Positions 1 through 8,311 of a DNA stretch of 25,903 nt are shown piece after piece. The DNA is taken from UHGV virus genome UHGV-0320751. One strand, given 5' to 3'. The DNA is from a virus. The notes beneath the pieces were generated by a model. It was given only the letters and a program-made list of their open reading frames with translations, was not told the DNA's origin and searched no databases. A program made the translations under genes and the position numbers. Every line of letters starts with the position of its first letter. The first letter of the stretch is position 1.

Positions 1-185
1 GTCATGAATCGAAGATAAGCAGAACGGACTGGAGATTTATTGCTTCGGTCTTGTGTGCTTTCGGAATGGCATCAGACATCAGTCCGATTAGCAGGGCTTT
101 TAAGTATGCGCTTGATGGACTCACCAATAAAAAACGCCCGGTGTGCAAGACCGAGCGTTCTGATCAAATACAAATGGAATTTTAA
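1..185 (+). CDS. cII: cII-like transcriptional activator, C-terminal fragment (5' end lies outside the window)
   Basis: Frame 3 is open from position 3 to a TAA at 183-185 and ends ...LTNKKRPVCKTERSDQIQMEF, matching the recalled C-terminus of lambda CII (...TNKKRPAATERSEQIQMEF). Not in the ORF track because it is truncated. Confidence 0.6.
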   Translation, partial: HESKISRTDWRFIASVLCAFGMASDISPISRAFKYALDGLTNKKRPVCKTERSDQIQMEF

Positions 186-198
186 CAACATCCAGCGA
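126..198 (-). ncRNA. oop: oop-like antisense RNA overlapping the cII 3' end, ending in an intrinsic terminator
   Basis: Minus-strand sequence ...UUUGAUCAGAACGCUCGGUCUUGCACACCGGGCGUUUUUUAUU closely matches the recalled 3' half of lambda oop RNA. Hairpin at 135-156 followed by a U-run (plus 126-134). Candidate minus-strand -10 TATAAT is the reverse complement of plus 203-208. The 5' end is approximate. Confidence 0.5.
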
Positions 199-207
199 GG
201 TAATTAT

Positions 208-480
208 ATGCGAAACAAAGGCTTTAATCCACCTGATACACACAAAGAAGTTAAGCGTTTGCGCTTCCTTCGTTCCATTGATGAAAGAACTCAAATCTCT
301 TTTGTGAAAGTTGCCAGAACTGAGCTTCTGAAGGCTGAGGCGAGGGCGTTGCTCCCGTCTCTACCAAAAGAGGAGGGATATACGTTCATTCCAAACGCAT
401 TTCTGGAAAAGCTGCTCAAAGAAGACATATCCGTAAGTCAGTTTAACGATGTTCTTAAGGTCTTTCGTCAAGGCAGGTAG
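208..480 (+). CDS. hypothetical protein between cII and the replication initiator
   Basis: ATG at 208 with an AGG Shine-Dalgarno 9 nt upstream; 90 aa. The track ORF 40..480 begins with TTG and its N-terminal part overlaps the cII frame, so the internal ATG is preferred. No family recognised. Confidence 0.4.
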   Translation: MRNKGFNPPDTHKEVKRLRFLRSIDERTQISFVKVARTELLKAEARALLPSLPKEEGYTFIPNAFLEKLLKEDISVSQFNDVLKVFRQGR

Positions 481-482
481 TT

Positions 483-1430
483 ATGAGCAATACAGCAAAA
501 ATCTACGATTTCAGCGCCGCACACGAGCGCAGGAGCAACAGGATGGAGAACCAGAAAACTGGTTACATTCCGTTGTACCGGAGCATTCTGAAACAGTCAT
601 GGGCGAAAGATGTTTATCTTCGCACCCTGTGGGAAAACCTTCTCCTGAATGCCGCCAGAAAGCCATACAAAGCGAATTTCAAAGGTCATGAATGGCATCT
701 GCAACCCGGTCAACTGGTTGTGACAGCAGCTGATTTAGGTCTTCAGTTATGCGACAGGCATGGCAAGCCGGCAAGCCGTGATCAGGTTGAGCGGATGCTT
801 CAGGTTTTTGTGAAAGAGGGGATGATCTCCATTGATGGAGAGAAGCAAAAAGGTCGTGTGATCACCATCACAAATTACCATGAATATGCTCAAAAAATGG
901 ACGATTCATCCGCACATGAAGCCGCACAAACAACCGCACATGATGCCGCACATGATGAAGCCAGTAATGGCGCTGCATTCAGCGTACATGCCGCACATGA
1001 AAGCGCACATGAAGCCGCACAAACAACCGCACATCATGAACAAGAAGGTATTAACAAGAATATAAATAATACCCCCCTACCCCCCAATGGGGGAGGCGAT
1101 GGGCAGGTTAAACCTGAACGTCGCAAGGCAGAACGCATCGACTACGAATCCTTCCTGAACGCCTACAACACCGAAGTCGGTGACAGACTTCCACACGCTG
1201 TTGCGGTCAACGAGAAACGCAAACGCCGCCTGAAGAAAATCATCCCGCAACTGAAAACGCCAAACGTGGACGGTTTCAGAGCGTATGTCAGGGCGTTTGT
1301 GCATCAGGCCAAGCCGTTTTACTTCGGAGACAACGACACGGGCTGGACGGCAGATTTTGATTACCTGCTGAGGGAAGATTCGTTAACGGGAGTTCGGGAA
1401 GGGAAGTTTGCAGACAGGGGGATTGCATGA
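483..1430 (+). CDS. replication initiator: lambda O-like N-terminal domain fused to a DnaT-like C-terminal domain
   Basis: N-terminus [10 protein letters not shown] resembles lambda O (MTNTAKILNF). The C-terminal region ([18 protein letters not shown]...[17 protein letters not shown]) resembles the DnaT/replisome-organizer domain. Sits directly upstream of a DnaB-like helicase and its stop overlaps the helicase start (ATGA). Confidence 0.8.
910..1038. repeat. putative origin iterons inside the initiator gene: two blocks of four 12-bp repeats (CCGCACA core)
   Basis: CCGCACA cores start at 910, 922, 934, 946 and at 991, 1003 (GCGCACA), 1015, 1027, all at 12-bp spacing. Followed by an AT-rich stretch (1040-1066) and C/G tracts. 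Same layout as ori-lambda inside O. Confidence 0.6.
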
Positions 1431-2803
1431 AACAGGATATCGAAGCGAGCGTTATCGGTGGCCTGCTGATTGGTGGATTAACACCAACCGCCAGCGACGT
1501 TCTGGCAACGCTGGATCCGGAAGCGTTTTCAATTCCGCTCTACCGGAAAGCCTTCGAGGTTATCCGCAAGCAGGCGCGAAACAGAAACCTAATCGACGCG
1601 CTGATGGTTGCCGAGGCGTGCGGAGAGGAGCATTTCACGTCAATCCTGATGACCAGCAAAAACTGCCCGAGTGCCGCAAATCTGAAGGGATATGCAGGAA
1701 TGGTCGCGGATAACTATCACCGCCGTCTGGTGCTGGAAATCATGGATGAAATGCGTGAACCAATTCAGAGCGGAACCATCGACGCATCGAGTCAGGCGAT
1801 GGATGAGCTTGTAAAGCGTCTTTCAGCCATCAGAAAGCCCCGTGACGAGGTTAAACCTGTACGGTTAGGGGAAATCATTACTGACTACACTGACACGCTT
1901 GACAGGCGTCTGAGGAACGGAGAAGAGTCCGATACCCTGAAGACCGGAATCGAAGAACTTGATGCCATCACCGGAGGGATGAACGCAGAAGACCTGGTGA
2001 TAATCGCTGCTCGTCCTGGTATGGGGAAAACCGAACTGGCGCTGAAGATTGCCGAAGGCGTTGCAAGCCGCGTTATTCCTGGTTCTGACGTCCGGCGCGG
2101 GGTATTGATTTTCTCAATGGAAATGAGCGCATTGCAGATTGCAGAGCGAAGCATTGCCAACGCCGGGAGGATGTCGGTTAGCGTACTGCGAAATCCTGCA
2201 TCGATGGATGACGAAGGCTGGGCGCGTGTTGCTAACGGCATGAGTCAGCTTGCAGATTTGGATGTATGGGTAGTCGATGCCTCGCGGTTATCGGTCGAAG
2301 AAATACGCTCAATCGCAGAACGGCATAAACAGGAAAATCCAAACCTGTCTCTAATCATGGCGGATTATCTTGGCCTGATTGAGAAGCCGAAAGCAGACCG
2401 CAACGACCTCGCAATTGCTCACATCTCCGGAAGCCTGAAGGCGATGGCGAAAGACCTGAAAACGCCTGTTATCTCCCTGAGTCAGCTTTCGCGCGATGTT
2501 GAGAAGCGACCAAACAAACGCCCGACAAACGCAGATTTGCGTGATTCAGGAAGCATTGAACAGGACGCAGACTCAATCATCATGCTCTATCGGGAAGCGG
2601 TATATGACGAGAACAGTAGCGCCGCACCATTTGCTGAAATCATTGTGACAAAAAACCGTTTTGGCTCGCTTGGTACGGTTTACCAGCGGTTCTGCAACGG
2701 ACACTTTGTTGCATGTGACCAGGATGAAGCCAGACAGATTTGCACAGCATCAAATGCGCCCGCTGCGCGTGGCAGACGATATGCACAAGGGGCTGACGTA
2801 TGA
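1427..2803 (+). CDS. DnaB-family replicative DNA helicase (phage-encoded)
   Basis: 458 aa with a DnaB N-terminal domain and Walker A motif [13 protein letters not shown], plus RecA-like C-terminal motifs. GGGGGA Shine-Dalgarno before ATG 1427. Confidence 0.9.
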
Positions 2804-2884
2804 CCATCTACATCACTGAGCTAATAACAGTGGCTATTTACACAGTAGCCCTTTTTTATTGGATTAAGAACTAGGGGGATCCTA

Positions 2885-3088
2885 ATGGACACCGTTAACG
2901 GAATGTGTTCAGACGCACCGCGTGCCAAAAAATGTAAATGCGGAAAATCACCGACAATATTCGACATGGAGAACGGGTGCCAAATCTACTGCGCTAACCA
3001 CGCTGCTGTGGCGGCCGCGAATTATCGCAGTGCGGTAACGGAGTGGAATAATCTGAAGTCTGTTAGAGAGGGAAGTCATGAATCTTGA
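2885..3088 (+). CDS. small zinc-ribbon protein, possibly Lar-family (restriction alleviation)-like
   Basis: 67 aa with CKCG...(x14)...CQIYC followed by ...AVTEWNN, resembling the Lar/RalR layout (CxxCG ... CxxxC ... AWN). GGGGG Shine-Dalgarno before the ATG. Family assignment is from memory only. Confidence 0.45.
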   Translation: MDTVNGMCSDAPRAKKCKCGKSPTIFDMENGCQIYCANHAAVAAANYRSAVTEWNNLKSVREGSHES

Positions 3089-3260
3089 CGAGCAAGATGC
3101 ACAAACTATTAGCTCATACATAAGGGCATCGAGACCAGATTACAAAGGTCCGGTATTCGTAGATTTATCTCGCCTTGAAGAGATTTACATGTGGAAAGCA
3201 AGGTTACTTACGCATTTTGTTATTCGAACGATGACTAGCAACATTACAAAACCAATGTAA
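3078..3260 (+). CDS. hypothetical small protein (nin-region)
   Basis: ATG at 3078 with GAGAGGGAAG upstream; 60 aa; start overlaps the stop of the preceding ORF. Confidence 0.4.
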   Translation: MNLDEQDAQTISSYIRASRPDYKGPVFVDLSRLEEIYMWKARLLTHFVIRTMTSNITKPM

Positions 3261-3268
3261 CTGGAGAG

Positions 3269-3490
3269 ATGAATATGAGCACACTCGCAGACCTTATTCA
3301 TGCTGATATGGCGGAAGATGGAGCAAGGCGAAATAGGTACTGGAAATCATCAAGCCTTCCAGTTTGTGAAAGATTCAACCACAGGCCAAAACAAAAACGT
3401 AGTCGAAGAGACAAGGTGTTGAAAAAACTCATGCAAATTAACATGGCTGGTTTTGTCAGATTCGTGAGTGAAACGACTAACGGGGATTGA
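3269..3490 (+). CDS. hypothetical small basic protein (nin-region)
   Basis: ORF of 73 aa with a GGAG Shine-Dalgarno; an alternative ATG at 3275 has better spacing. Basic stretch KQKRSRRDK. Confidence 0.4.
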   Translation: MNMSTLADLIHADMAEDGARRNRYWKSSSLPVCERFNHRPKQKRSRRDKVLKKLMQINMAGFVRFVSETTNGD

Positions 3491-3491
3491 T

Positions 3492-3803
3492 ATGGACGAA
3501 TCAAGAAAGCAGTTTGAAGAATGGTTTGAAAATTACACCGGATGTGATCCTAAAAATAAAATATACGCCAATATGGTTGAGATGTATTGGCAAGCGTGGC
3601 AGGCATCGCGAGCAGCTATTGAACTGGATATCGACTGGCCAGAATCGAATGACGACTTTTGGAAAGATGGTGAAGAAGGTGCTTATGCGATGGGTTATGA
3701 GGATGGGCGTGACAAAACGGTAATTGCAGTAATGAAAGCTATCAGAGCCGCTGGAATTAAAGAGAAGAATTTCGATGAAGCAAACAATCTTCCTCCGAAC
3801 TAA
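3492..3803 (+). CDS. hypothetical protein (acidic, Trp-rich)
   Basis: ATG at 3492 with GGGGA upstream, immediately after the stop of the previous ORF; 103 aa. No family recognised with confidence. Confidence 0.5.
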   Translation: MDESRKQFEEWFENYTGCDPKNKIYANMVEMYWQAWQASRAAIELDIDWPESNDDFWKDGEEGAYAMGYEDGRDKTVIAVMKAIRAAGIKEKNFDEANNLPPN

Positions 3804-4185
3804 GCAACAACAGCAAGCCGCAATAAATGCCATCCTCGCAACACCACTCGATAAAGACAAGCCAGTCACCATCCGCATTACTGACTACAAGCGCAACCTT
3901 GACCAGAACGCAAAATTTCACGTGATGCTGGCGGATATCGCTCGTCAGGTTCAATGGTGCGGCAAATGGTTAAAACCGGAACAATGGAAGGTTTTGTTGA
4001 TCAGCGGTCATGCAGTGGCAACAAAGCAGGAAGCTGATGTTTTGCCCGGGCTTGAAGGCGAATACGTCAACATTCGCGAAAGTAGCGCGCAGATGAGCGT
4101 GAAGCGCATGGCAAGCCTGATTGAGTACACGACAGCATGGGCTATTGGTCAGGGTGTCAGATTTACCGACAGGAGGTACGAATGA
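3775..4185 (+). CDS. ninB: NinB recombination protein (Orf family)
   Basis: 136 aa, alignable to recalled lambda NinB (motifs [24 protein letters not shown] versus lambda DQNRKLWACLGDVSRQVEWHGRWL). Confidence 0.9.
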
Positions 4186-4358
4186 GACGACAGCGACGAA
4201 GCATCACCGACATCATCTGCGAAAACTGCAAATACCTTCCAACGAAACGCTCCAGAAATAAACGCAAGCCAATCCCAAAAGAATCTGACGTAAAAACCTT
4301 CAATTACACGGCTCACCTGTGGGATATCCGGTGGCTAAGACATCGTGCGAGGAAATGA
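4182..4358 (+). CDS. ninE: NinE protein
   Basis: [23 protein letters not shown]... is near-identical to recalled lambda NinE. AGGAGG Shine-Dalgarno at 4171-4176; ATGA overlap with the ninB stop. Confidence 0.8.
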
Positions 4359-5305
4359 CGATGACTGCGTATTACAACGAAATAGATCCGTATGCAGCGC
4401 AATGGCTGCGTAACTTAATTGACGCTGGAGAAATTGCCCCCGGTTATGTAGATGAAAGGAGTATTGAAGATGTCACACCAGGTGATTTGCGAGGATTTAC
4501 CCAGCACCACTTTTTTGCAGGAATCGGAGTTTGGAGCTATGCACTTAGAAAAGCAGGATGGCCAGACAACAAGAGTATCTGGACAGGAAGTTGCCCATGC
4601 CAACCTTTCAGCTCGGCAGGCAAAGGAAAAGGGGTTGATGACGAGCGGCACTTATGGCCGGCATTCTTCTGGCTTATTGAAAAATGCAATCCTGGCATCG
4701 TTATTGGCGAACAGGTTGCAAGCGCAGACGGCCTCGCTTGGCTCGACCTTGTACAAACTGACTTGGAAGGTGCGAACTACACCTCTGCAGGTACCGATAT
4801 TTGCGCTGCGAGCTTCGGTTCTCCGCACATCAGGCAGCGATTGTATTGGGTGGCCTACTCCAACGACAAATATCAACTTTCAGCCAGAGACGCGCAGGGG
4901 AATTCAGAACCTATCTGGATGCGTGAGACTAGCGGGATGGCAAACTCCTTTAGCGAACGATGCAACAGGTTCAACGCATTGCTACAGCGGAAAAGACAAG
5001 AGCGGAACCCCAAGAATCTGCTTGAAACTTCCCGGGACGGTGAAGCTATGTACCCATTACCGGTTAACGGCTTCTGGAGAGATGCAGACTGGCTTTACTG
5101 TAGAGATGAAAAATATCGTCCAGTTAGACCCGGCTCATTCCCGATGGTTAATGGCATTGCCAAAAGCTTGGGACGAGGCAAGTCCACACTGGGAAGAATG
5201 GCAAAGCGCAATCAAGATCAGCGAATTATTGGATATGGAAACGCAATCAATGCAGAAGTAGCAACGGCATTCGTGAAAGTTTGTATGGAGGTTGTTAATG
5301 CTTAG
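4355..5305 (+). CDS. DNA (cytosine-5)-methyltransferase, orphan (no adjacent endonuclease)
   Basis: C5-MTase motifs are present: FFAGIGV (motif I-like), [13 protein letters not shown] (catalytic PCQ motif IV), GEQV (ENV-like), RQRLYW (motif VIII), IGYGNAI (motif X). Start overlaps the ninE stop. Confidence 0.85.
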
Positions 5306-5474
5306 CCCACCCCAATCCATTCAATACCAGAAAGAAAGCGTCGAGCGGGCTTTAACGTGCGCTAACTGCGGTCAGAAGCTGCATGTGCTGGAAGTTCACG
5401 TGTGTGAGCACTGCTGCGCAGAGCTTATGAGCGATCCGAATAGCTCAATGTACGAGGAAGAAGACGATGAATGA
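5298..5474 (+). CDS. ninF: NinF protein
   Basis: [58 protein letters not shown] is near-identical to recalled lambda NinF. GGAGG Shine-Dalgarno at 5287-5291. The track start at 5292 is TTG. Confidence 0.8.
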   Translation: MLSPPQSIQYQKESVERALTCANCGQKLHVLEVHVCEHCCAELMSDPNSSMYEEEDDE

Positions 5475-6189
5475 GTTAATAAATGGCAATGCCATCAAAA
5501 TGACAAGCATTGAAATCGCTGAGTTGGTTGGTAAGCGTCATGACAATGTGAAACGTACCATCGAAACGCTGGCTAAAAATGGTGTTATCCGGCTTCCTCA
5601 AATTGAGGTTTCCGAAAGAATCAATAACTTAGGGTTCAATGTTCAGTACGAGCATTACGTTTTCGAAGGCGAACAAGGTAAGCGAGACAGTATTGTCGTT
5701 GTTGCCCAGTTGTCGCCGGAATTCACCGCTCGCCTTGTTGACCGCTGGCGAGAGCTTGAAGAAGCTGCGGTTAATATCCCCAAAACGCTACCAGAAGCGT
5801 TGCGCCTTGCTGCTGATCTTGCTGAGCAGAAAATGCAACTGGAAAACCAGCTCGCAATTGCCGCACCTAAAGTTGAGTTTGCCGATCGCGTTGGCGAGGC
5901 CAGCGGAATTTTGATTGGAAACTTTGCAAAGGTTGTCGGTATTGGTCCAAACAAACTGTTTGCGTGGATGCGCGATCACAAAATCCTTATTGCTTCAGGT
6001 TCCCGGCGCAATGTGCCAATGCAGGAATATATGGATCGCGGCTATTTCACAGTGAAAGAAACAGCGTTCAACACAAATCACGGAATACAGATATCGTTCA
6101 CCACAAAAATCACCGGGCGTGGTCAACAGTGGCTGACCAGAAGGCTGCTCTATAGCGGAATGCTGAAAGTAACAGGGGAGGCTGCTTAA
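5467..6189 (+). CDS. Roi-like / phage antirepressor-family DNA-binding protein (Rha/Bro-N-like N-terminus, KilA-C/ANT-like C-terminus)
   Basis: 240 aa. The N-terminus (MTSIEIAELVGKRHDNVKRTIETL) looks like a Rha/Bro-N domain. Position after ninF matches the roi gene of HK022-type nin regions. Confidence 0.75.
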   Translation: MNELINGNAIKMTSIEIAELVGKRHDNVKRTIETLAKNGVIRLPQIEVSERINNLGFNVQYEHYVFEGEQGKRDSIVVVAQLSPEFTARLVDRWRELEEAAVNIPKTLPEALRLAADLAEQKMQLENQLAIAAPKVEFADRVGEASGILIGNFAKVVGIGPNKLFAWMRDHKILIASGSRRNVPMQEYMDRGYFTVKETAFNTNHGIQISFTTKITGRGQQWLTRRLLYSGMLKVTGEAA

Positions 6190-6479
6190 TGGCTAAACTA
6201 CGCAAAGAAGCGCGCGGCAGAGAATGCCAGGTACGTATTTACGGCGTATGCAATGGTAATCCTGAAACTACAGTTCTGGCACATTACCGGATGGCTGGAA
6301 TTTGCGGAACGGGAATGAAGCCTGACGACCTGATCGGCGCATGGGCTTGTAGCGCGTGTCACGATGAAATCGACCGACGCACCCATAATCTCGACAACAA
6401 AGACGCCAGACTTTACCACCTCGAAGGCGTGATCAGGACGCAGGCGATACTACTGAAGGAGGGGAAGATTAAGCCATGA
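6189..6479 (+). CDS. DUF1364 (YbcO-like) protein
   Basis: 96 aa, Cys/His-rich (RECQVRIYGVCNGNPETTVLAH...ACSACHDEIDRR), resembling E. coli DLP12 YbcO as recalled. GGGGAGG Shine-Dalgarno; start overlaps the stop of the upstream gene. Confidence 0.75.
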   Translation: MAKLRKEARGRECQVRIYGVCNGNPETTVLAHYRMAGICGTGMKPDDLIGAWACSACHDEIDRRTHNLDNKDARLYHLEGVIRTQAILLKEGKIKP

Positions 6480-6838
6480 ACGAATATCAGTTTGTGCTTC
6501 CATACCCGCCGTCGGTGAATACCTACTGGCGAAGACGGGGAAGCCAATACTACATCAGCGATAAAGGCCAGAAATACCGAAAAGATGTTCAGCAAATCAT
6601 CCGCCAACTTAAGTTAGACATTTTCACCAAATCACGACTCCGCATCAAAGTCATCGCAGACGTTCCAGACTCCCGCCGCCGCGACCTCGATAACATCCTG
6701 AAAGGTTTACTCGACTCCCTTATCCACGCCGGATTTGCGGAAGACGACGAGCAATTCGATGACATTCGCGTAATTCGTGGTGTGAAAGTACCAGGCGGAC
6801 GGCTTGGAATAAAAATCACCGAACTGGAGAACGTATGA
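6476..6838 (+). CDS. rusA: RusA Holliday-junction resolvase
   Basis: 120 aa with RusA signature (LPYPPSVNTYW...DVPDSRRRDLDNILKGLLDSL...GGRLGIKITEL). AGGAGGGG Shine-Dalgarno. Confidence 0.9.
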   Translation: MNEYQFVLPYPPSVNTYWRRRGSQYYISDKGQKYRKDVQQIIRQLKLDIFTKSRLRIKVIADVPDSRRRDLDNILKGLLDSLIHAGFAEDDEQFDDIRVIRGVKVPGGRLGIKITELENV

Positions 6839-7023
6839 ACGCCACAATTCAAACGATACCAGAGCTTCTTATCCAGACACGAGGCAATCAGACCGAAGTG
6901 GCGAGGATGCTTTCCTGCGCAAGAGGAACAGTGCTCAAGTACAACCGAGACAGCAAAGGCGAGCGTCACGTAATAGTTAACGGCGTCCTGATGGTCAAAC
7001 AGGGCAAGAGGGGAAGACGATGA
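6835..7023 (+). CDS. ninH: NinH-like small DNA-binding protein
   Basis: 62 aa; IPELLIQTRGNQTEVARMLSCARGTVLKY aligns to recalled lambda NinH (IPDMLVEAYGNQTEVARRLKCSRGTVRKY). Confidence 0.75.
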   Translation: MNATIQTIPELLIQTRGNQTEVARMLSCARGTVLKYNRDSKGERHVIVNGVLMVKQGKRGRR

Positions 7024-7643
7024 GACTCGAAAGCGTAGCTAAATTTCATTCGCCAAAAAGCCCGATGATGAGCGACTCACCACGGGCCACGGCTTCTGAC
7101 TCTCTTTCCGGTACTGATGTGATGGCTGCTATGGGGATGGCGCAATCACAAGCCGGATTCGGAATGGCTGCATTCTGCGGTAAGCATGAACTCAGCCAGA
7201 ACGACAAACAAAAGGCTATCAACTATCTGATGCAATTTGCACACAAGGTATCGGGGAAATACCGTGGTGTGGCAAAGCTTGAAGGAAATACTAAGGCAAA
7301 GGTACTGCAAGTTCTCGCAACATTCGCTTATGCGGATTATTGCCGTAGTGCCGCGACGCCGGGTGCAAGATGCAGAGATTGTCACGGTACTGGCCGGGCC
7401 GTTGATATTGCCAAAACAGAACGGTGTGGGAGAGTTGTCGAGAAAGAGTGCGGAAGATGCAAAGGCGTCGGCTATTCAAGGATGCCAGCAAGCGCAGCAT
7501 ATCGCGCTGTGACGATGCTAATCCCAAACCTTACCCAACCCACCTGGTCACGCACTGTTAAGCCGCTGTATGACGCTCTGGTGGTGCAATGCCACAAGGA
7601 AGAGTCAATCGCAGACAATATCTTGAATGCGGTCACACGTTAG
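7020..7643 (+). CDS. Q: late-gene antiterminator Q (lambda-type)
   Basis: 207 aa, essentially identical to recalled lambda Q (MRLESVAKFHSPKSPMMSDSPRATASDSLSG...). Confidence 0.95.
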   Translation: MRLESVAKFHSPKSPMMSDSPRATASDSLSGTDVMAAMGMAQSQAGFGMAAFCGKHELSQNDKQKAINYLMQFAHKVSGKYRGVAKLEGNTKAKVLQVLATFAYADYCRSAATPGARCRDCHGTGRAVDIAKTERCGRVVEKECGRCKGVGYSRMPASAAYRAVTMLIPNLTQPTWSRTVKPLYDALVVQCHKEESIADNILNAVTR

Positions 7644-7685
7644 CAGCATGATTGCCACGGATGGCAACATATTAACGGCATGATA

Positions 7686-7714
7686 TTGACTTTTTGAATA
7701 AAGTTGGGTAAATT
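7686..7714 (+). promoter_or_regulatory. late promoter pR' (-35 TTGACT 7686-7691, -10 TAAATT 7709-7714) with overlapping qut site
   Basis: Hexamers separated by 17 bp, immediately downstream of Q; the sequence matches the recalled lambda pR' region. Confidence 0.7.
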
Positions 7715-7720
7715 TGACCC

Positions 7721-7914
7721 AACGATGGGTTAATTCGCTCGTTGTGGTAGTGAGATAAAAAGAGGCGGCGCTTACTACCGATTCCGCCTAGTTGGTCACT
7801 TCGACGTATCGTCTGGAACTCCAACCATCGCAGGCTGAGAGGTCTGCAAAATGCAATCCCGAAACAGTTCGCAGGTAATAGTTAGAGCCTGCATAACGGT
7901 TTCGGGATTTTTTA
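7721..7914 (+). ncRNA. 6S RNA (short pR' transcript terminated at tR')
   Basis: About 194 nt from the predicted pR' start to the tR' terminator, as in lambda. Confidence 0.55.
7854..7914 (+). terminator. tR' intrinsic terminator
   Basis: Stem AATCCCGAAAC (7854-7864) pairs with GTTTCGGGATT (7899-7909), followed by a T-run (7908-7914). Confidence 0.65.
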
Positions 7915-8311
7915 TATCTGTGCAACAGGTAAGAGCATTCTCCCTTATGGGGCTTGGCTTAAATGCACCGAGTGCTCTTATCGTTGTGCTGAATTAAGCG
8001 AATGCCGGAAGCAGAACCGGATCACCAAATGCGTACAGGCGTCATCGCCGCCCAGCAACAGCACAACCTAAACTGAGCCGTAGCCACTGGCTATCCTGAA
8101 TTCATCAGTGATAGTTACGCTGCGGCCTTCTACACATGATCTTCGTGAAAGCGGGTGGCAGGAGGTCGCGCTAACAACCTCCTGCCGTTTTGCCCGTGCA
8201 TATCGGTCACGAACAAATCTGATTACTAAACACAGTAGCCTGGATTTGTTCTATCAGAAATCGACCTTATTCCTAATTAAATAGAGCAAATCCCCTTATT
8301 GGGGGTAAGAC

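What the first reader, a model, noticed from the sequence alone, without database searches (positions are those of the whole stretch)
2804..3803. Cluster of four small ORFs downstream of the helicase, including a Lar-like zinc-ribbon protein
The position corresponds to where lambda carries ren (resistance to Rex exclusion), a known slot for anti-defence genes. ORF 2885-3088 has a CxCG-x14-CxxxC ... EWN layout reminiscent of Lar/RalR restriction-alleviation proteins. The three neighbours (3078-3260, 3269-3490, 3492-3803) are tightly packed with overlapping stop/start signals, and I recognise no family for them. Together with the orphan cytosine methyltransferase about 1.5 kb downstream, this suggests an early-expressed anti-restriction set.
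Basis: inference. Interest (0 to 1): 0.5.

Follow-up and report, generated by a model that had tools for sequence, protein, structure and literature searches.

The report
Small accessory genes in lambdoid nin region
The four small genes are real, conserved but uncharacterised accessory genes in a well-known variable slot of lambda-like phages, and the first one only weakly resembles the Lar anti-restriction protein that sits in the same slot in related phages.

Summary
Window 2804-3803 carries four real, tightly packed small genes. They lie downstream of a DnaB-type helicase, a 24-codon ninA mini-ORF and the tR2 terminator, and upstream of ninB.

All four belong to catalogued families of unknown function:
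- ORF1: HK97 gp60, phrog_6308.
- ORF2: phrog_21123.
- ORF3: DUF7301.
- ORF4: PF26207, the same family as 933W p31.

They are not one unit. ORF1 comes with an HK97-like module and ORF2-4 with an Stx-phage-like module, joined at 3066-3082. The families occur independently and in other orders in hundreds of prophages.

ORF1 is not a demonstrable Lar member. Pfam gives no hit and hhalign gives at most 9.6% probability. There is a collinear, weak similarity: 10.8 bits to a home-made 22-sequence Lar profile, reached by 27 of 20,000 shuffles.

True Lar genes sit directly 5' of ninB in Stx phages. ORF1 holds that same position in HK97.

No anti-defence homology was found for ORF2-4. This is an ordinary nin-region cassette array with one modest annotation lead.

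The parts
1427..2803 (+). DnaB-type replicative helicase (gene P analogue), the upstream border of the slot
   Evidence: Pfam DnaB_C 9.5e-78 and DnaB 5.5e-13. 98% nt identity to HK97 gp55.
2800..2874 (+). ninA mini-ORF (24 codons, hydrophobic). Its ATG overlaps the helicase stop. It is truncated here by GAG->TAG compared with the 32-codon form in most relatives.
   Evidence: Annotated ninA in CUS-3 and Nil2 and gp56 in HK97. Variant survey of 80 loci.
2832..2860 (+). tR2-type intrinsic terminator (hairpin plus T run) inside ninA
   Evidence: The only + strand terminator-like site in 2500-4500. It is co-linear with the annotated tR2 of phage Nil2. One relative has a different hairpin sequence at the same place.
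2885..3088 (+). ORF1: HK97 gp60-family Cys-rich protein (67 aa; C8, C17, C19, C32, C36 and H39 conserved). Putative zinc ribbon with weak collinear resemblance to Lar.
   Evidence: phrog_6308 E=3.6e-51. 98% nt identity to HK97/CUS-3. Narrow family: 16 proteins, 8 representative clusters. pN/pS indicates purifying selection. Lar tests.
3066..3082 (.). Mosaic joint. This 17-nt stretch is shared by the HK97-like module (2601-3082) and the Stx-phage-like module (3066-3522). It covers the ORF2 ribosome-binding site and start, and the ORF1 3' end.
   Evidence: blastn of the window against HK97, CUS-3, SH2026Stx1, 1717 and phi330.
3078..3260 (+). ORF2: 60-aa protein, phrog_21123, function unknown
   Evidence: PHROG E=4.8e-39. 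97% identical copies in Stx phages, mostly unannotated there, and 37% identity in Serratia phage Eta. Followed by an ORF3-family gene in every surveyed locus that carries it.
3275..3490 (+). ORF3: DUF7301 protein (71 aa from ATG 3275; alternative ATG 3269). Basic, pI 10.35.
   Evidence: Pfam PF23975 107 bits, phrog_1785. Matches in 224 phage records, including a paralogue immediately upstream of Lar in Stx phages. pI.
3492..3803 (+). ORF4: PF26207 (Phage_phiTE_015)/phrog_343 protein (103 aa). Acidic, pI 4.36. Same family as 933W p31. Overlaps the ninB start by 29 nt.
   Evidence: PHROG E=2.9e-32. 367 homologues at E<=0.001, all 120 listed carrying PF26207. 70% identity to 933W p31. AF2 mean pLDDT 69.8, N-terminal helical hairpin, no informative fold match.
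3523..3596 (+). Variable segment inside ORF4 (residues about 11-35), between conserved N- and C-terminal blocks. An intragenic mosaic boundary.
   Evidence: No nucleotide match to the Stx phages that match both flanks at 96%. Length and sequence are hypervariable in the family alignment.
3775..4185 (+). ninB (Orf recombination mediator), the downstream border of the slot
   Evidence: Pfam NinB 3.1e-55.
4182..4358 (+). ninE (start ATG 4182, ATGA overlap with the ninB stop)
   Evidence: Pfam NinE 1.5e-43, covering residues 16-73 of the longer ORF.
4355..5305 (+). Orphan C5 cytosine DNA methyltransferase (start ATG 4355, ATGA overlap with the ninE stop)
   Evidence: Pfam DNA_methylase 2.7e-14, phrog_363 1.5e-92. 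Neighbours are NinE and NinF; no restriction-enzyme gene is adjacent.

Best explanation
Shown: the interval is the promoter-proximal end of the nin region of a lambdoid prophage.
- After the DnaB-type helicase comes a ninA mini-ORF that contains the tR2 terminator.
- Four genuine small genes follow, closely spaced or overlapping: ORF1 (HK97 gp60 family), ORF2 (phrog_21123), ORF3 (DUF7301) and ORF4 (PF26207, the 933W p31 family). Then comes ninB.
- They sit in a hypervariable cassette slot. Content is exchanged between phages by recombination at short conserved gene-boundary sequences.
- Here an HK97-type ninA-tR2-ORF1 module is joined at 3066-3082 to an Stx-phage-type ORF2-ORF3-ORF4 module.

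Inferred from the architecture:
- The simple sigma-70 scan found no + strand promoter-like site, and the genes lie behind tR2. They should be made as delayed-early products of the pR transcript, only after N antitermination.
- They are probably dispensable for growth, as the paper cited describes the lambda nin genes.

Inferred function, the weakest step:
- The genes are most likely independent accessory proteins that act on the host early in infection, in counter-defence or host takeover. I put this at about 0.5.
- ORF1 is the best candidate. I read it as a small zinc-binding protein with ligands C17/C19 and C36/H39, built like a Lar zinc ribbon followed by a C-terminal A-V-x-E-W-N helix. In HK97 it occupies the position directly 5' of ninB that true Lar genes occupy in Stx phages.
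- If ORF1 works like Lar, it would dampen type I restriction of the incoming unmodified genome. The nearby orphan C5 methyltransferase would protect the DNA by modification.
- I put ORF1 sharing the Lar fold at about 0.4, and ORF1 actually alleviating restriction at about 0.25.
- ORF3 (basic) and ORF4 (acidic) have no assignable mechanism.
For: Gene identity and reality:
- PHROG and Pfam hits.
- Near-identical annotated genes in HK97, CUS-3 and Stx phages.
- Purifying selection on ORF1.
- A distant ORF2 homologue.

Operon context:
- tR2.
- No + strand promoter-like site in 2500-4500.
- nin genes are described as nonessential and tightly packed (PMC8022706).

Mosaicism and cassette behaviour:
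- Module boundaries.
- The ninA-tR2-ORF1 module sits behind either a helicase or a Ren gene.
- 53 different slot architectures occur among 80 loci that share a >=96% identical ninB.
- The order DUF7301 > PF26207 > ORF1 > ninB-like is seen in a diverged phage.

Lar analogy:
- The collinear alignment runs C-G ... C-x-x-[C/H] ... A-V-x-x-W-N.
- The score rose from 7.7-8.1 to 10.8 bits when the Lar profile was broadened from 10 to 22 sequences.
- Shuffle p fell from about 0.005-0.007 to 0.00135, and hhalign P from 0.038 to 0.0034.
- ORF1 is the top-scoring of 349 six-frame ORFs of the window.
- True Lar (Pfam 37.8 bits) lies directly 5' of ninB and overlaps it in SH2026Stx1 and 933W, next to a Dam methyltransferase.
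Against: - No functional homology was found for any of the four proteins in Pfam, NCBIfam, PADLOC or the PDB, by sequence or fold.
- ORF1 fails the curated Lar model and stays below any accepted remote-homology threshold (hhalign probability <=9.6%).
- The first ORF1 knuckle is CxC, not CxxC. The Arg after W-N that is conserved in Lar is missing.
- The AF2 model of ORF1 was unusable (pLDDT 52).
- ORF1 and a true Lar coexist in locus L222. That argues against simple functional equivalence.
- Proximity to replication and recombination genes fits other roles equally well.
Confidence: 0.55

Rival explanations
1. ORF1 is a member of the Lar/RalR restriction-alleviation family. The four ORFs plus the C5 methyltransferase form a dedicated early anti-restriction set.
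For: - Weak collinear similarity to Lar profiles.
- True Lar plus a methyltransferase in the same slot in Stx phages.
- Delayed-early position behind tR2.
Against: - No Pfam Lar hit.
- hhalign probability <=9.6%.
- A profile search of 1.84e9 proteins does not connect the ORF1 family to any other family.
- ORF2-4 have no anti-defence signal.
- The four genes assort independently.
- ORF1 coexists with a true Lar in L222.
Confidence: 0.15
2. The small proteins are accessory factors of phage replication or recombination. They would work with the neighbouring helicase or the NinB/Orf mediator, for example by binding DNA, SSB or host recombination proteins, rather than acting on host defences.
For: - They lie between the replication genes and ninB.
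- ORF4-family genes are the commonest immediate 5' neighbour of this ninB allele.
- ORF3 is strongly basic with an Arg/Lys-rich centre.
Against: - Slot content is extremely variable for one and the same ninB allele (53 architectures in 80 loci), and some phages have almost nothing there.
- The same families follow either lambda-P/Ren or DnaB-type replication modules.
- No DNA-binding or recombination domain was detected.
Confidence: 0.15
3. They are prophage 'moron'-type genes that protect the lysogen, for example by superinfection exclusion, abortive infection or a toxin-antitoxin pair formed by basic ORF3 and acidic ORF4.
For: - ORF3 and ORF4 are adjacent and oppositely charged (pI 10.35 and 4.36).
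- GC content is lower (38-43%) than in the flanking genes.
- Rac RalR itself has been described as a DNase toxin of a type I toxin-antitoxin pair (PMC4041452).
Against: - No + strand promoter-like site, and the only terminator-like site is upstream (tR2), so expression from the repressed prophage is not expected.
- No PADLOC hit.
- DUF7301 directly precedes an ORF4-family gene in only about 23 of 80 ORF4-family loci.
Confidence: 0.08
4. Some of the ORFs are non-functional remnants or chance reading frames left by mosaic recombination.
For: - A recombination joint lies at the ORF1/ORF2 border and changes the ORF1 C-terminus.
- ORF4 has an intragenic mosaic boundary.
- ORF2 is left unannotated in most Stx phage records.
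Against: - Strong PHROG and Pfam matches.
- pN far below pS for ORF1.
- A protein-level ORF2 homologue in Serratia phage Eta.
- Exact copies of ORF1, ORF2 and ORF3 on 371, 501 and 100 contigs, though the exact ORF4 sequence is on only 4.
- Shine-Dalgarno-like purine-rich runs lie a few bases upstream of each start (read).
Confidence: 0.04

Closest known systems
HK97 gp60 (phrog_6308; also present in CUS-3, HK446, HK544)
   Same: ORF1 with its upstream ninA/tR2 is 97-98% identical in DNA (window 2601-3082). The protein is identical through residue 66. It holds the same position behind the helicase.
   Different: In HK97 the gene abuts and overlaps ninB. Here its last codons are replaced at the 3066-3082 joint (...SHES* instead of ...SHEKTNL*), and three more genes are inserted before ninB. 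No function is known for gp60; a literature search found nothing relevant.
Lar/RalR restriction-alleviation proteins (Pfam PF14354), e.g. Rac RalR and the Lar-like genes of Stx phages 933W, 1717 and SH2026Stx1
   Same: - Similar size, 60-80 aa.
- A Cys knuckle ending in C-G.
- A second knuckle about 17 residues later.
- An A-[VIL]-x-x-W-N motif about 15 residues after that.
- In lambdoid phages, a position directly 5' of ninB and near a phage methyltransferase.
   Different: - ORF1 does not reach the Pfam model or an accepted hhalign probability (<=9.6%).
- Its knuckles are C-x-C and C-x-x-H rather than C-P-F-C and C-x-x-C.
- It has extra conserved C8 and C32.
- There is no Arg after W-N.
- Activity is untested. 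RalR itself has also been described as a DNase toxin (PMC4041452).
Lambda Ren (and the 933W / PhiR63_2 Ren-like proteins)
   Same: It occupies the same general interval between the replication genes and ninB.
   Different: There is no sequence similarity to ORF1-4 (blastp). Where both occur, a Ren-like gene precedes the ninA/tR2/ORF1 module. ORF1-4 are therefore additions downstream of tR2, not replacements of ren.
DUF7301 (PF23975; ST64T Orf-69, vB_24B_15-like genes)
   Same: ORF3 is a full-length member, 107 bits. Paralogues lie in the same slot in more than 200 phage records.
   Different: Nothing differs; it is an ordinary member. The family has no known function, and a literature search found nothing.
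PF26207 Phage_phiTE_015 / phrog_343 (933W p31, Sf6 gene 48-like)
   Same: ORF4 shares the conserved MDESRKQFE.W start, the W.AWQASRAAIEL block and the acidic C-terminal half. Like most members seen here, it usually sits just 5' of ninB.
   Different: Its variable segment (3523-3596) and its last 5 residues differ from the Stx-phage copies. The family has no known function, and no structural neighbour is informative.

Membership tests
Lar_restr_allev (Pfam PF14354) | Scores above the curated Pfam gathering threshold (28.6 bits) | tested here: not met
   ORF1 has no Pfam hit at E<=10. The controls pass: RalR 53.5 bits and SH2026Stx1 Lar-like 37.8 bits.
Lar_restr_allev (Pfam PF14354) | N-terminal zinc knuckle C-P-F-C-G (CxxCG) | tested here: not met
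   ORF1 has C17-K-C19-G20 (CxCG), one residue shorter. Only the C-G aligns.
Lar_restr_allev (Pfam PF14354) | Second knuckle CxxC about 17-18 residues after the first | tested here: inconclusive
   ORF1 C36-A-N-H39 aligns with the Lar C-x-x-C, 17 residues after C19, but has His in place of the last Cys. C32 is an extra conserved Cys.
Lar_restr_allev (Pfam PF14354) | C-terminal A-[IVL]-x-x-W-N-x-R motif | tested here: inconclusive
   ORF1 has A50-V-T-E-W54-N55-N-L. A, V, W and N are present, but the conserved Arg is absent.
Lar_restr_allev (Pfam PF14354) | Statistically significant profile-profile similarity | tested here: not met
   hhalign probability was 0.45%, 1.35% and 9.6% as the Lar alignment was broadened. 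A custom HMM gave 10.8 bits, reached by 27 of 20,000 shuffles. This is suggestive only.
Lar_restr_allev (Pfam PF14354) | Alleviates type I (EcoKI) restriction / enhances modification | not testable with these tools
   Needs plating assays.
HK97 gp60 family (phrog_6308) | Full-length profile match and conserved Cys/His pattern | tested here: met
   E=3.6e-51 over residues 1-66. C8, C17, C19 and C32 are invariant, and C36 and H39 nearly invariant, in the family alignment.
phrog_21123 (ORF2) | Full-length profile match | tested here: met
   E=4.8e-39, residues 1-60 of 60.
DUF7301 (PF23975) | Scores above the Pfam gathering threshold (27 bits) | tested here: met
   ORF3 scores 107.2 bits, profile positions 1-64 of 65.
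PF26207 Phage_phiTE_015 / phrog_343 | Profile match | tested here: met
   phrog_343 E=2.9e-32. All 120 listed homologues, including 98-99% identical ones, carry the precomputed PF26207 hit. The local Pfam scan returned no PF26207 hit for ORF4 even at E<=1, so the model is probably absent from that copy and the Pfam part is indirect.
Glyoxalase/VOC superfamily (for ORF4) | Pfam Glyoxalase_4 above 27 bits and a beta-alpha-beta-beta-beta fold | tested here: not met
Lambdoid nin region | Lies between the replication genes and Q, downstream of tR2, with closely packed genes including ninB, ninE, ninF, rusA and ninH | tested here: met
   Helicase, NinB, NinE, NinF, YbcO, RusA, NinH and Q are all present in order. 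tR2. ATGA overlaps at 4182 and 4355 (read).
Known anti-phage defence systems (PADLOC-DB) | Any model hit | tested here: not met
   No hit for ORF1-4 at E<=0.1.

The most novel reading that the evidence does not exclude
HK97 gp60/ORF1 is a cryptic, highly diverged Lar-type zinc ribbon with CxC plus CxxH ligands. The position directly 5' of ninB would then be a dedicated counter-restriction locus with interchangeable alleles (classical Lar or gp60-type), flanked by further uncharacterised counter-defence cassettes. These would include the acidic PF26207 protein with its hypervariable segment and the basic DUF7301 protein.
Probability: 0.2. Interest if true: 0.5.

Novelty: already known. Interest (0 to 1): 0.27.

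Why it matters
It gives a testable functional lead for HK97 gp60, a gene that has had no annotation for decades, and for two widespread Enterobacteriaceae prophage families (DUF7301 and PF26207). It also documents that the P/ren-ninB interval is a fast-evolving cassette site that carries true Lar genes in Stx phages. If ORF1 proved to be a Lar analogue, the known sequence space of restriction-alleviation proteins would widen. It would also mark this slot as a place to mine for counter-defence genes. As it stands, this is an ordinary piece of lambdoid mosaic genome, made of genes already catalogued as hypothetical proteins.

Tried and rejected
Structure and fold:
- AF2 of ORF1 with its shallow 8-sequence alignment gave pLDDT 52. 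The model was unusable, and no fold search was attempted.
- PDB sequence searches for ORF1-4 and for Lar found nothing.

Family assignments rejected:
- The weak Glyoxalase_4/'VOC' hit for ORF4 is below the cut-off and has no structural support.
- NCBIfam and PADLOC gave nothing for ORF1-4.

Building a Lar profile:
- The search with RalR and the genome-contig scan returned only near-identical RalR copies.
- The profile was finally assembled from phage tblastn hits and IMG/VR relatives.

Other dead ends:
- The HNH endonuclease and NinX proteins that share 90% clusters with ORF1 and ORF2 show no sequence resemblance to them. I treated this as a clustering artefact.
- Literature searches for DUF7301, PF26207/phiTE_015 and HK97 gp60 found nothing relevant, and one search was spoiled by 'Lar' matching 'large'.
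- Rfam, tRNA and repeat scans of the region were empty.
- A DUF7301-Lar fusion suggested by the 933W and 1717 annotation was rejected. The DUF7301 match and the annotated 933Wp32 start are in different frames, and the N-terminal 64 codons of the 1717 CDS show no resemblance to either family.
Full report
**What is in the sequence.** The six-frame listing confirms ORFs at 2885-3088 (67 aa), 3078-3260 (60 aa), 3269-3490 (73 aa) and 3492-3803 (103 aa) on the + strand. The surrounding genes identify a lambdoid early-right operon:
- an O-like initiator (483-1430);
- a DnaB-type helicase (1427-2803);
- NinB (3775-4185) and NinE (4182-4358);
- a C5 DNA methyltransferase (4355-5305);
- NinF, a 240-aa ORF (5467-6189) not scanned here, a YbcO-type nuclease, RusA (by position and by the match to PhiR63_2), NinH and an ORF at 7020-7643 in the position of Q.

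The late half of the window is 99.8% identical to phage 21-like and PhiR63_2-like phages. Those phages carry a different early-right module, with lambda O/P and Ren.

**The 80 bases before ORF1 are not empty.**
- A 24-codon hydrophobic mini-ORF (2800-2874) starts on the helicase stop codon. It corresponds to ninA of CUS-3 and Nil2, and to gp56 of HK97.
- Inside it lies the only + strand terminator-like site of the region: a stem at 2832-2850 followed by a T run. It is co-linear with the tR2 terminator annotated in phage Nil2.
- Among 67 related loci with the ninA start motif, nearly all have the stem GGGGCTA...TAGCCC. The window has a G->T change at its base and a GAG->TAG change that shortens ninA.
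- One relative has a completely different hairpin at the same place.
- The scan found no + strand promoter-like site in 2500-4500.
- The four ORFs are therefore nin-region genes proper. They should be transcribed from pR only after antitermination at tR2.

**Are they genes?** Yes.
- Each matches a PHROG family over its full length: phrog_6308, 21123, 1785 and 343, with E from 1e-32 to 1e-51.
- ORF3 passes Pfam DUF7301 at 107 bits.
- ORF4's homologues carry PF26207, 'Phage_phiTE_015'.
- ORF2 has a 37%-identical homologue in Serratia phage Eta.
- ORF1, compared with two diverged homologues recovered with their DNA, shows pN 0.06-0.12 against essentially saturated synonymous sites (pS 0.87-0.99).
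- Exact copies of ORF1, ORF2 and ORF3 occur on 371, 501 and 100 contigs. The exact ORF4 sequence occurs on only 4. Sources call them 'hypothetical protein', 'Bacteriophage protein' or 'DUF7301 family protein'.
- The ORF3 start is probably ATG 3275. That gives the 216-nt gene annotated in relatives and matches where the profiles begin.

**They are not one unit.** Pairwise blastn gives the following picture:
- Window 2601-3082 (helicase end, ninA/tR2, ORF1) is 97-98% identical to HK97 and CUS-3.
- Window 3066-3522 (ORF2, ORF3, start of ORF4) and 3597-3784 (ORF4 C-terminal half) are 96% identical to Stx phages SH2026Stx1, 1717 and phi330.
- The two modules share only 17 nt (3066-3082), at the ORF2 ribosome-binding site and start. 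The ORF1 C-terminus changes there.
- Window 3523-3596 is a variable segment inside ORF4. In the family alignment it is a hypervariable stretch between the conserved blocks MDESRKQFE.W and W.AWQASRAAIEL.

**Slot surveys in IMG/VR.**
- In 80 loci selected for ORF1, the dominant order is helicase > ORF1 > ninB, as in HK97. About 14 loci have ORF1 > ORF2 > ORF3, with or without ORF4. Seven place the ninA-tR2-ORF1 module behind a Ren-like gene.
- In 80 loci selected for ORF4-family genes, DUF7301 is the immediate upstream gene in only about 23.
- In 80 loci with a ninB at least 96% identical to this one, there are 53 different slot architectures. The distance from the replication gene to ninB ranges from about 290 nt to more than 1.5 kb.
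- A diverged phage has the order DUF7301 > PF26207 > ORF1 > ninB-like.
- The interval is therefore a hypervariable cassette site. The exact four-gene array of the window is a recurrent but minor haplotype.
- Close packing with ATGA overlaps is a general nin-region trait (PMC8022706).

**Is ORF1 Lar-like? Negative results.**
- The Pfam Lar model does not report ORF1 even at E<=10. My recalled RalR sequence was confirmed 100% identical to prophage copies and scores 53.5 bits.
- BLASTP of ORF1 against RalR finds nothing.
- A profile of the ORF1 family, searched against 1.84 billion representative proteins, finds only 8 clusters, all of its own family.
- hhalign against a RalR-only profile gives 0.45% probability. 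It aligns just RSAVTEWNN with KEALERWNK.
- AF2 on ORF1 was unusable.

**Is ORF1 Lar-like? Suggestive results.**
- I built Lar profiles from diverse phage Lar proteins.
- With 10 sequences, ORF1-family members score 7-8.5 bits in a collinear alignment from C-G to W-N. Of 20,000 shuffles of ORF1, 101-132 reach that score, and hhalign gives P=0.038.
- With 22 sequences at no more than 85% identity, ORF1 rises to 10.8 bits. Only 27 of 20,000 shuffles reach it, and hhalign gives P=0.0034 with probability 9.6%.
- ORF1 is the top-scoring of the window's 349 six-frame ORFs, at 10.2 bits against 5.8 for the next.
- In that alignment C19-G20 matches the Lar C-G, C36-x-x-H39 matches the second Lar C-x-x-C, and A50-V-x-E-W54-N55 matches A-[IVL]-x-x-W-N.
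- A score that rises as the profile broadens is what remote homology would give.

**Independent positional evidence.**
- tblastn with RalR shows that genuine Lar genes lie immediately 5' of ninB, overlapping it, in Stx phages 1717, SH2026Stx1, 2851, PA28 and CP-1639. The 933W record annotates a Lar-like CDS in the same place.
- The SH2026Stx1 gene passes Pfam Lar at 37.8 bits. There the order is helicase > ninA > HNH > ORF2 (unannotated) > ORF3 homologue > ORF4 homologue > second DUF7301 > Lar > ninB > Dam methyltransferase.
- In HK97 and in the diverged loci L263 and L264, ORF1 sits in that same position directly 5' of ninB.
- Against simple equivalence, one locus (L222) has ORF1, ORF2, ORF3 and a true Lar.
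- Overall I rate a shared Lar-type fold at about 0.4, and a restriction-alleviation function at about 0.25.

**ORF2, ORF3 and ORF4.**
- There is no informative hit in Pfam, NCBIfam, PADLOC or PDB sequences.
- ORF4 is acidic (pI 4.36; family median 4.74) and ORF3 is basic (pI 10.35).
- The ORF4 model has mean pLDDT 69.8, with a confident N-terminal helical hairpin. It matches only uncharacterised phage proteins in BFVD and nothing meaningful in the PDB.
- The sub-threshold Glyoxalase_4 hit is probably the source of the 'VOC family' names some databases give these proteins. It is not supported.
- 933W p31 is an ORF4-family member at 70% identity.
- GC content of ORF2-4 (38-43%) is below that of the neighbouring genes (49-52%).

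**Verdict.**
The slot, the timing and the motif resemblance are right, and true Lar genes do live here in relatives.
- Lar membership is not shown. The other three genes have no anti-defence evidence, and the four genes are independent cassettes rather than a set.
- All four are already catalogued as hypothetical genes, at 96-100% identity to copies in published phages and prophages.
- Interest is modest. The only real lead is a testable functional hypothesis for HK97 gp60.

Noticed in passing
window 2800-2874 (codon at 2872-2874; base 2831): The ninA mini-ORF is cut to 24 codons by GAG->TAG; most relatives have 32 codons. A G->T change at the base of the tR2 stem (GGGGCTA -> GTGGCTA) was seen in none of 67 related loci. 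One relative has an entirely different hairpin sequence at the same spot, which suggests that the hairpin, rather than the peptide, is the conserved feature.
   Followed up: partly
L102 (933W) 2498-2857; L092 (phage 1717) 3448-3873: The RefSeq 'Lar-like restriction alleviation protein' CDSs of 933W and 1717 are over-extended at the N-terminus. The true Lar domain starts at MSDLSLTQPK. The extension runs, in another frame, across a separate DUF7301 gene that is often left unannotated.
   Followed up: yes
Stx phage records, e.g. NC_049919.1 16398-16577: The ORF2 homologue (97% identical, 60 aa) has no annotated feature in most Stx-converting phage records, although it is conserved down to 37% identity in Serratia phage Eta.
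   Followed up: partly
window 3523-3596 (ORF4 residues about 11-35): This is a hypervariable segment, in both length and sequence, flanked by highly conserved blocks across the PF26207 family. The C-terminal half also comes in at least three unrelated versions behind an identical N-terminal half. I did not resolve whether this reflects intragenic module shuffling or diversifying selection.
   Followed up: partly
window 4355-5305: An orphan C5 cytosine methyltransferase sits between ninE and ninF. Its likely start is ATG 4355, overlapping the ninE stop as ATGA, not the GTG at 4319. Many relatives carry a Dam-type N6-adenine methyltransferase between ninB and ninE instead.
   Followed up: partly
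proteins P0158, P0166, P0170; loci L223, L224, L239: In some relatives an HNH endonuclease gene lies between ORF1 and ninB, or just after ninB. Some predicted HNH proteins begin with the first 30 or so residues of NinB, as if a homing-type endonuclease had inserted at the ninB 5' end.
   Followed up: no
window 2885-3088 versus L263:2851-3078 and L264:25-240: Nearly every synonymous site of ORF1 differs from the two diverged homologues (pS 0.87-0.99), while the protein stays 78-86% identical. This is unusually strong conservation for a 67-aa protein of unknown function.
   Followed up: yes
window 1-8000 versus 11450-25000: The late region is 99.8% identical to phage 21, ev017 and PhiR63_2. The early-right region is an HK97/Stx-type mosaic that is absent from those phages, which have lambda O/P, Ren and an IS200 transposase in the slot instead.
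   Followed up: partly
clusters 1 and 2: The 90%-identity clusters that contain ORF1 and ORF2 have unrelated representatives (an HNH endonuclease of 195 aa and a NinX/DUF2591 protein of 122 aa) with no sequence resemblance to them. This appears to be a clustering artefact in the protein collection.
   Followed up: yes
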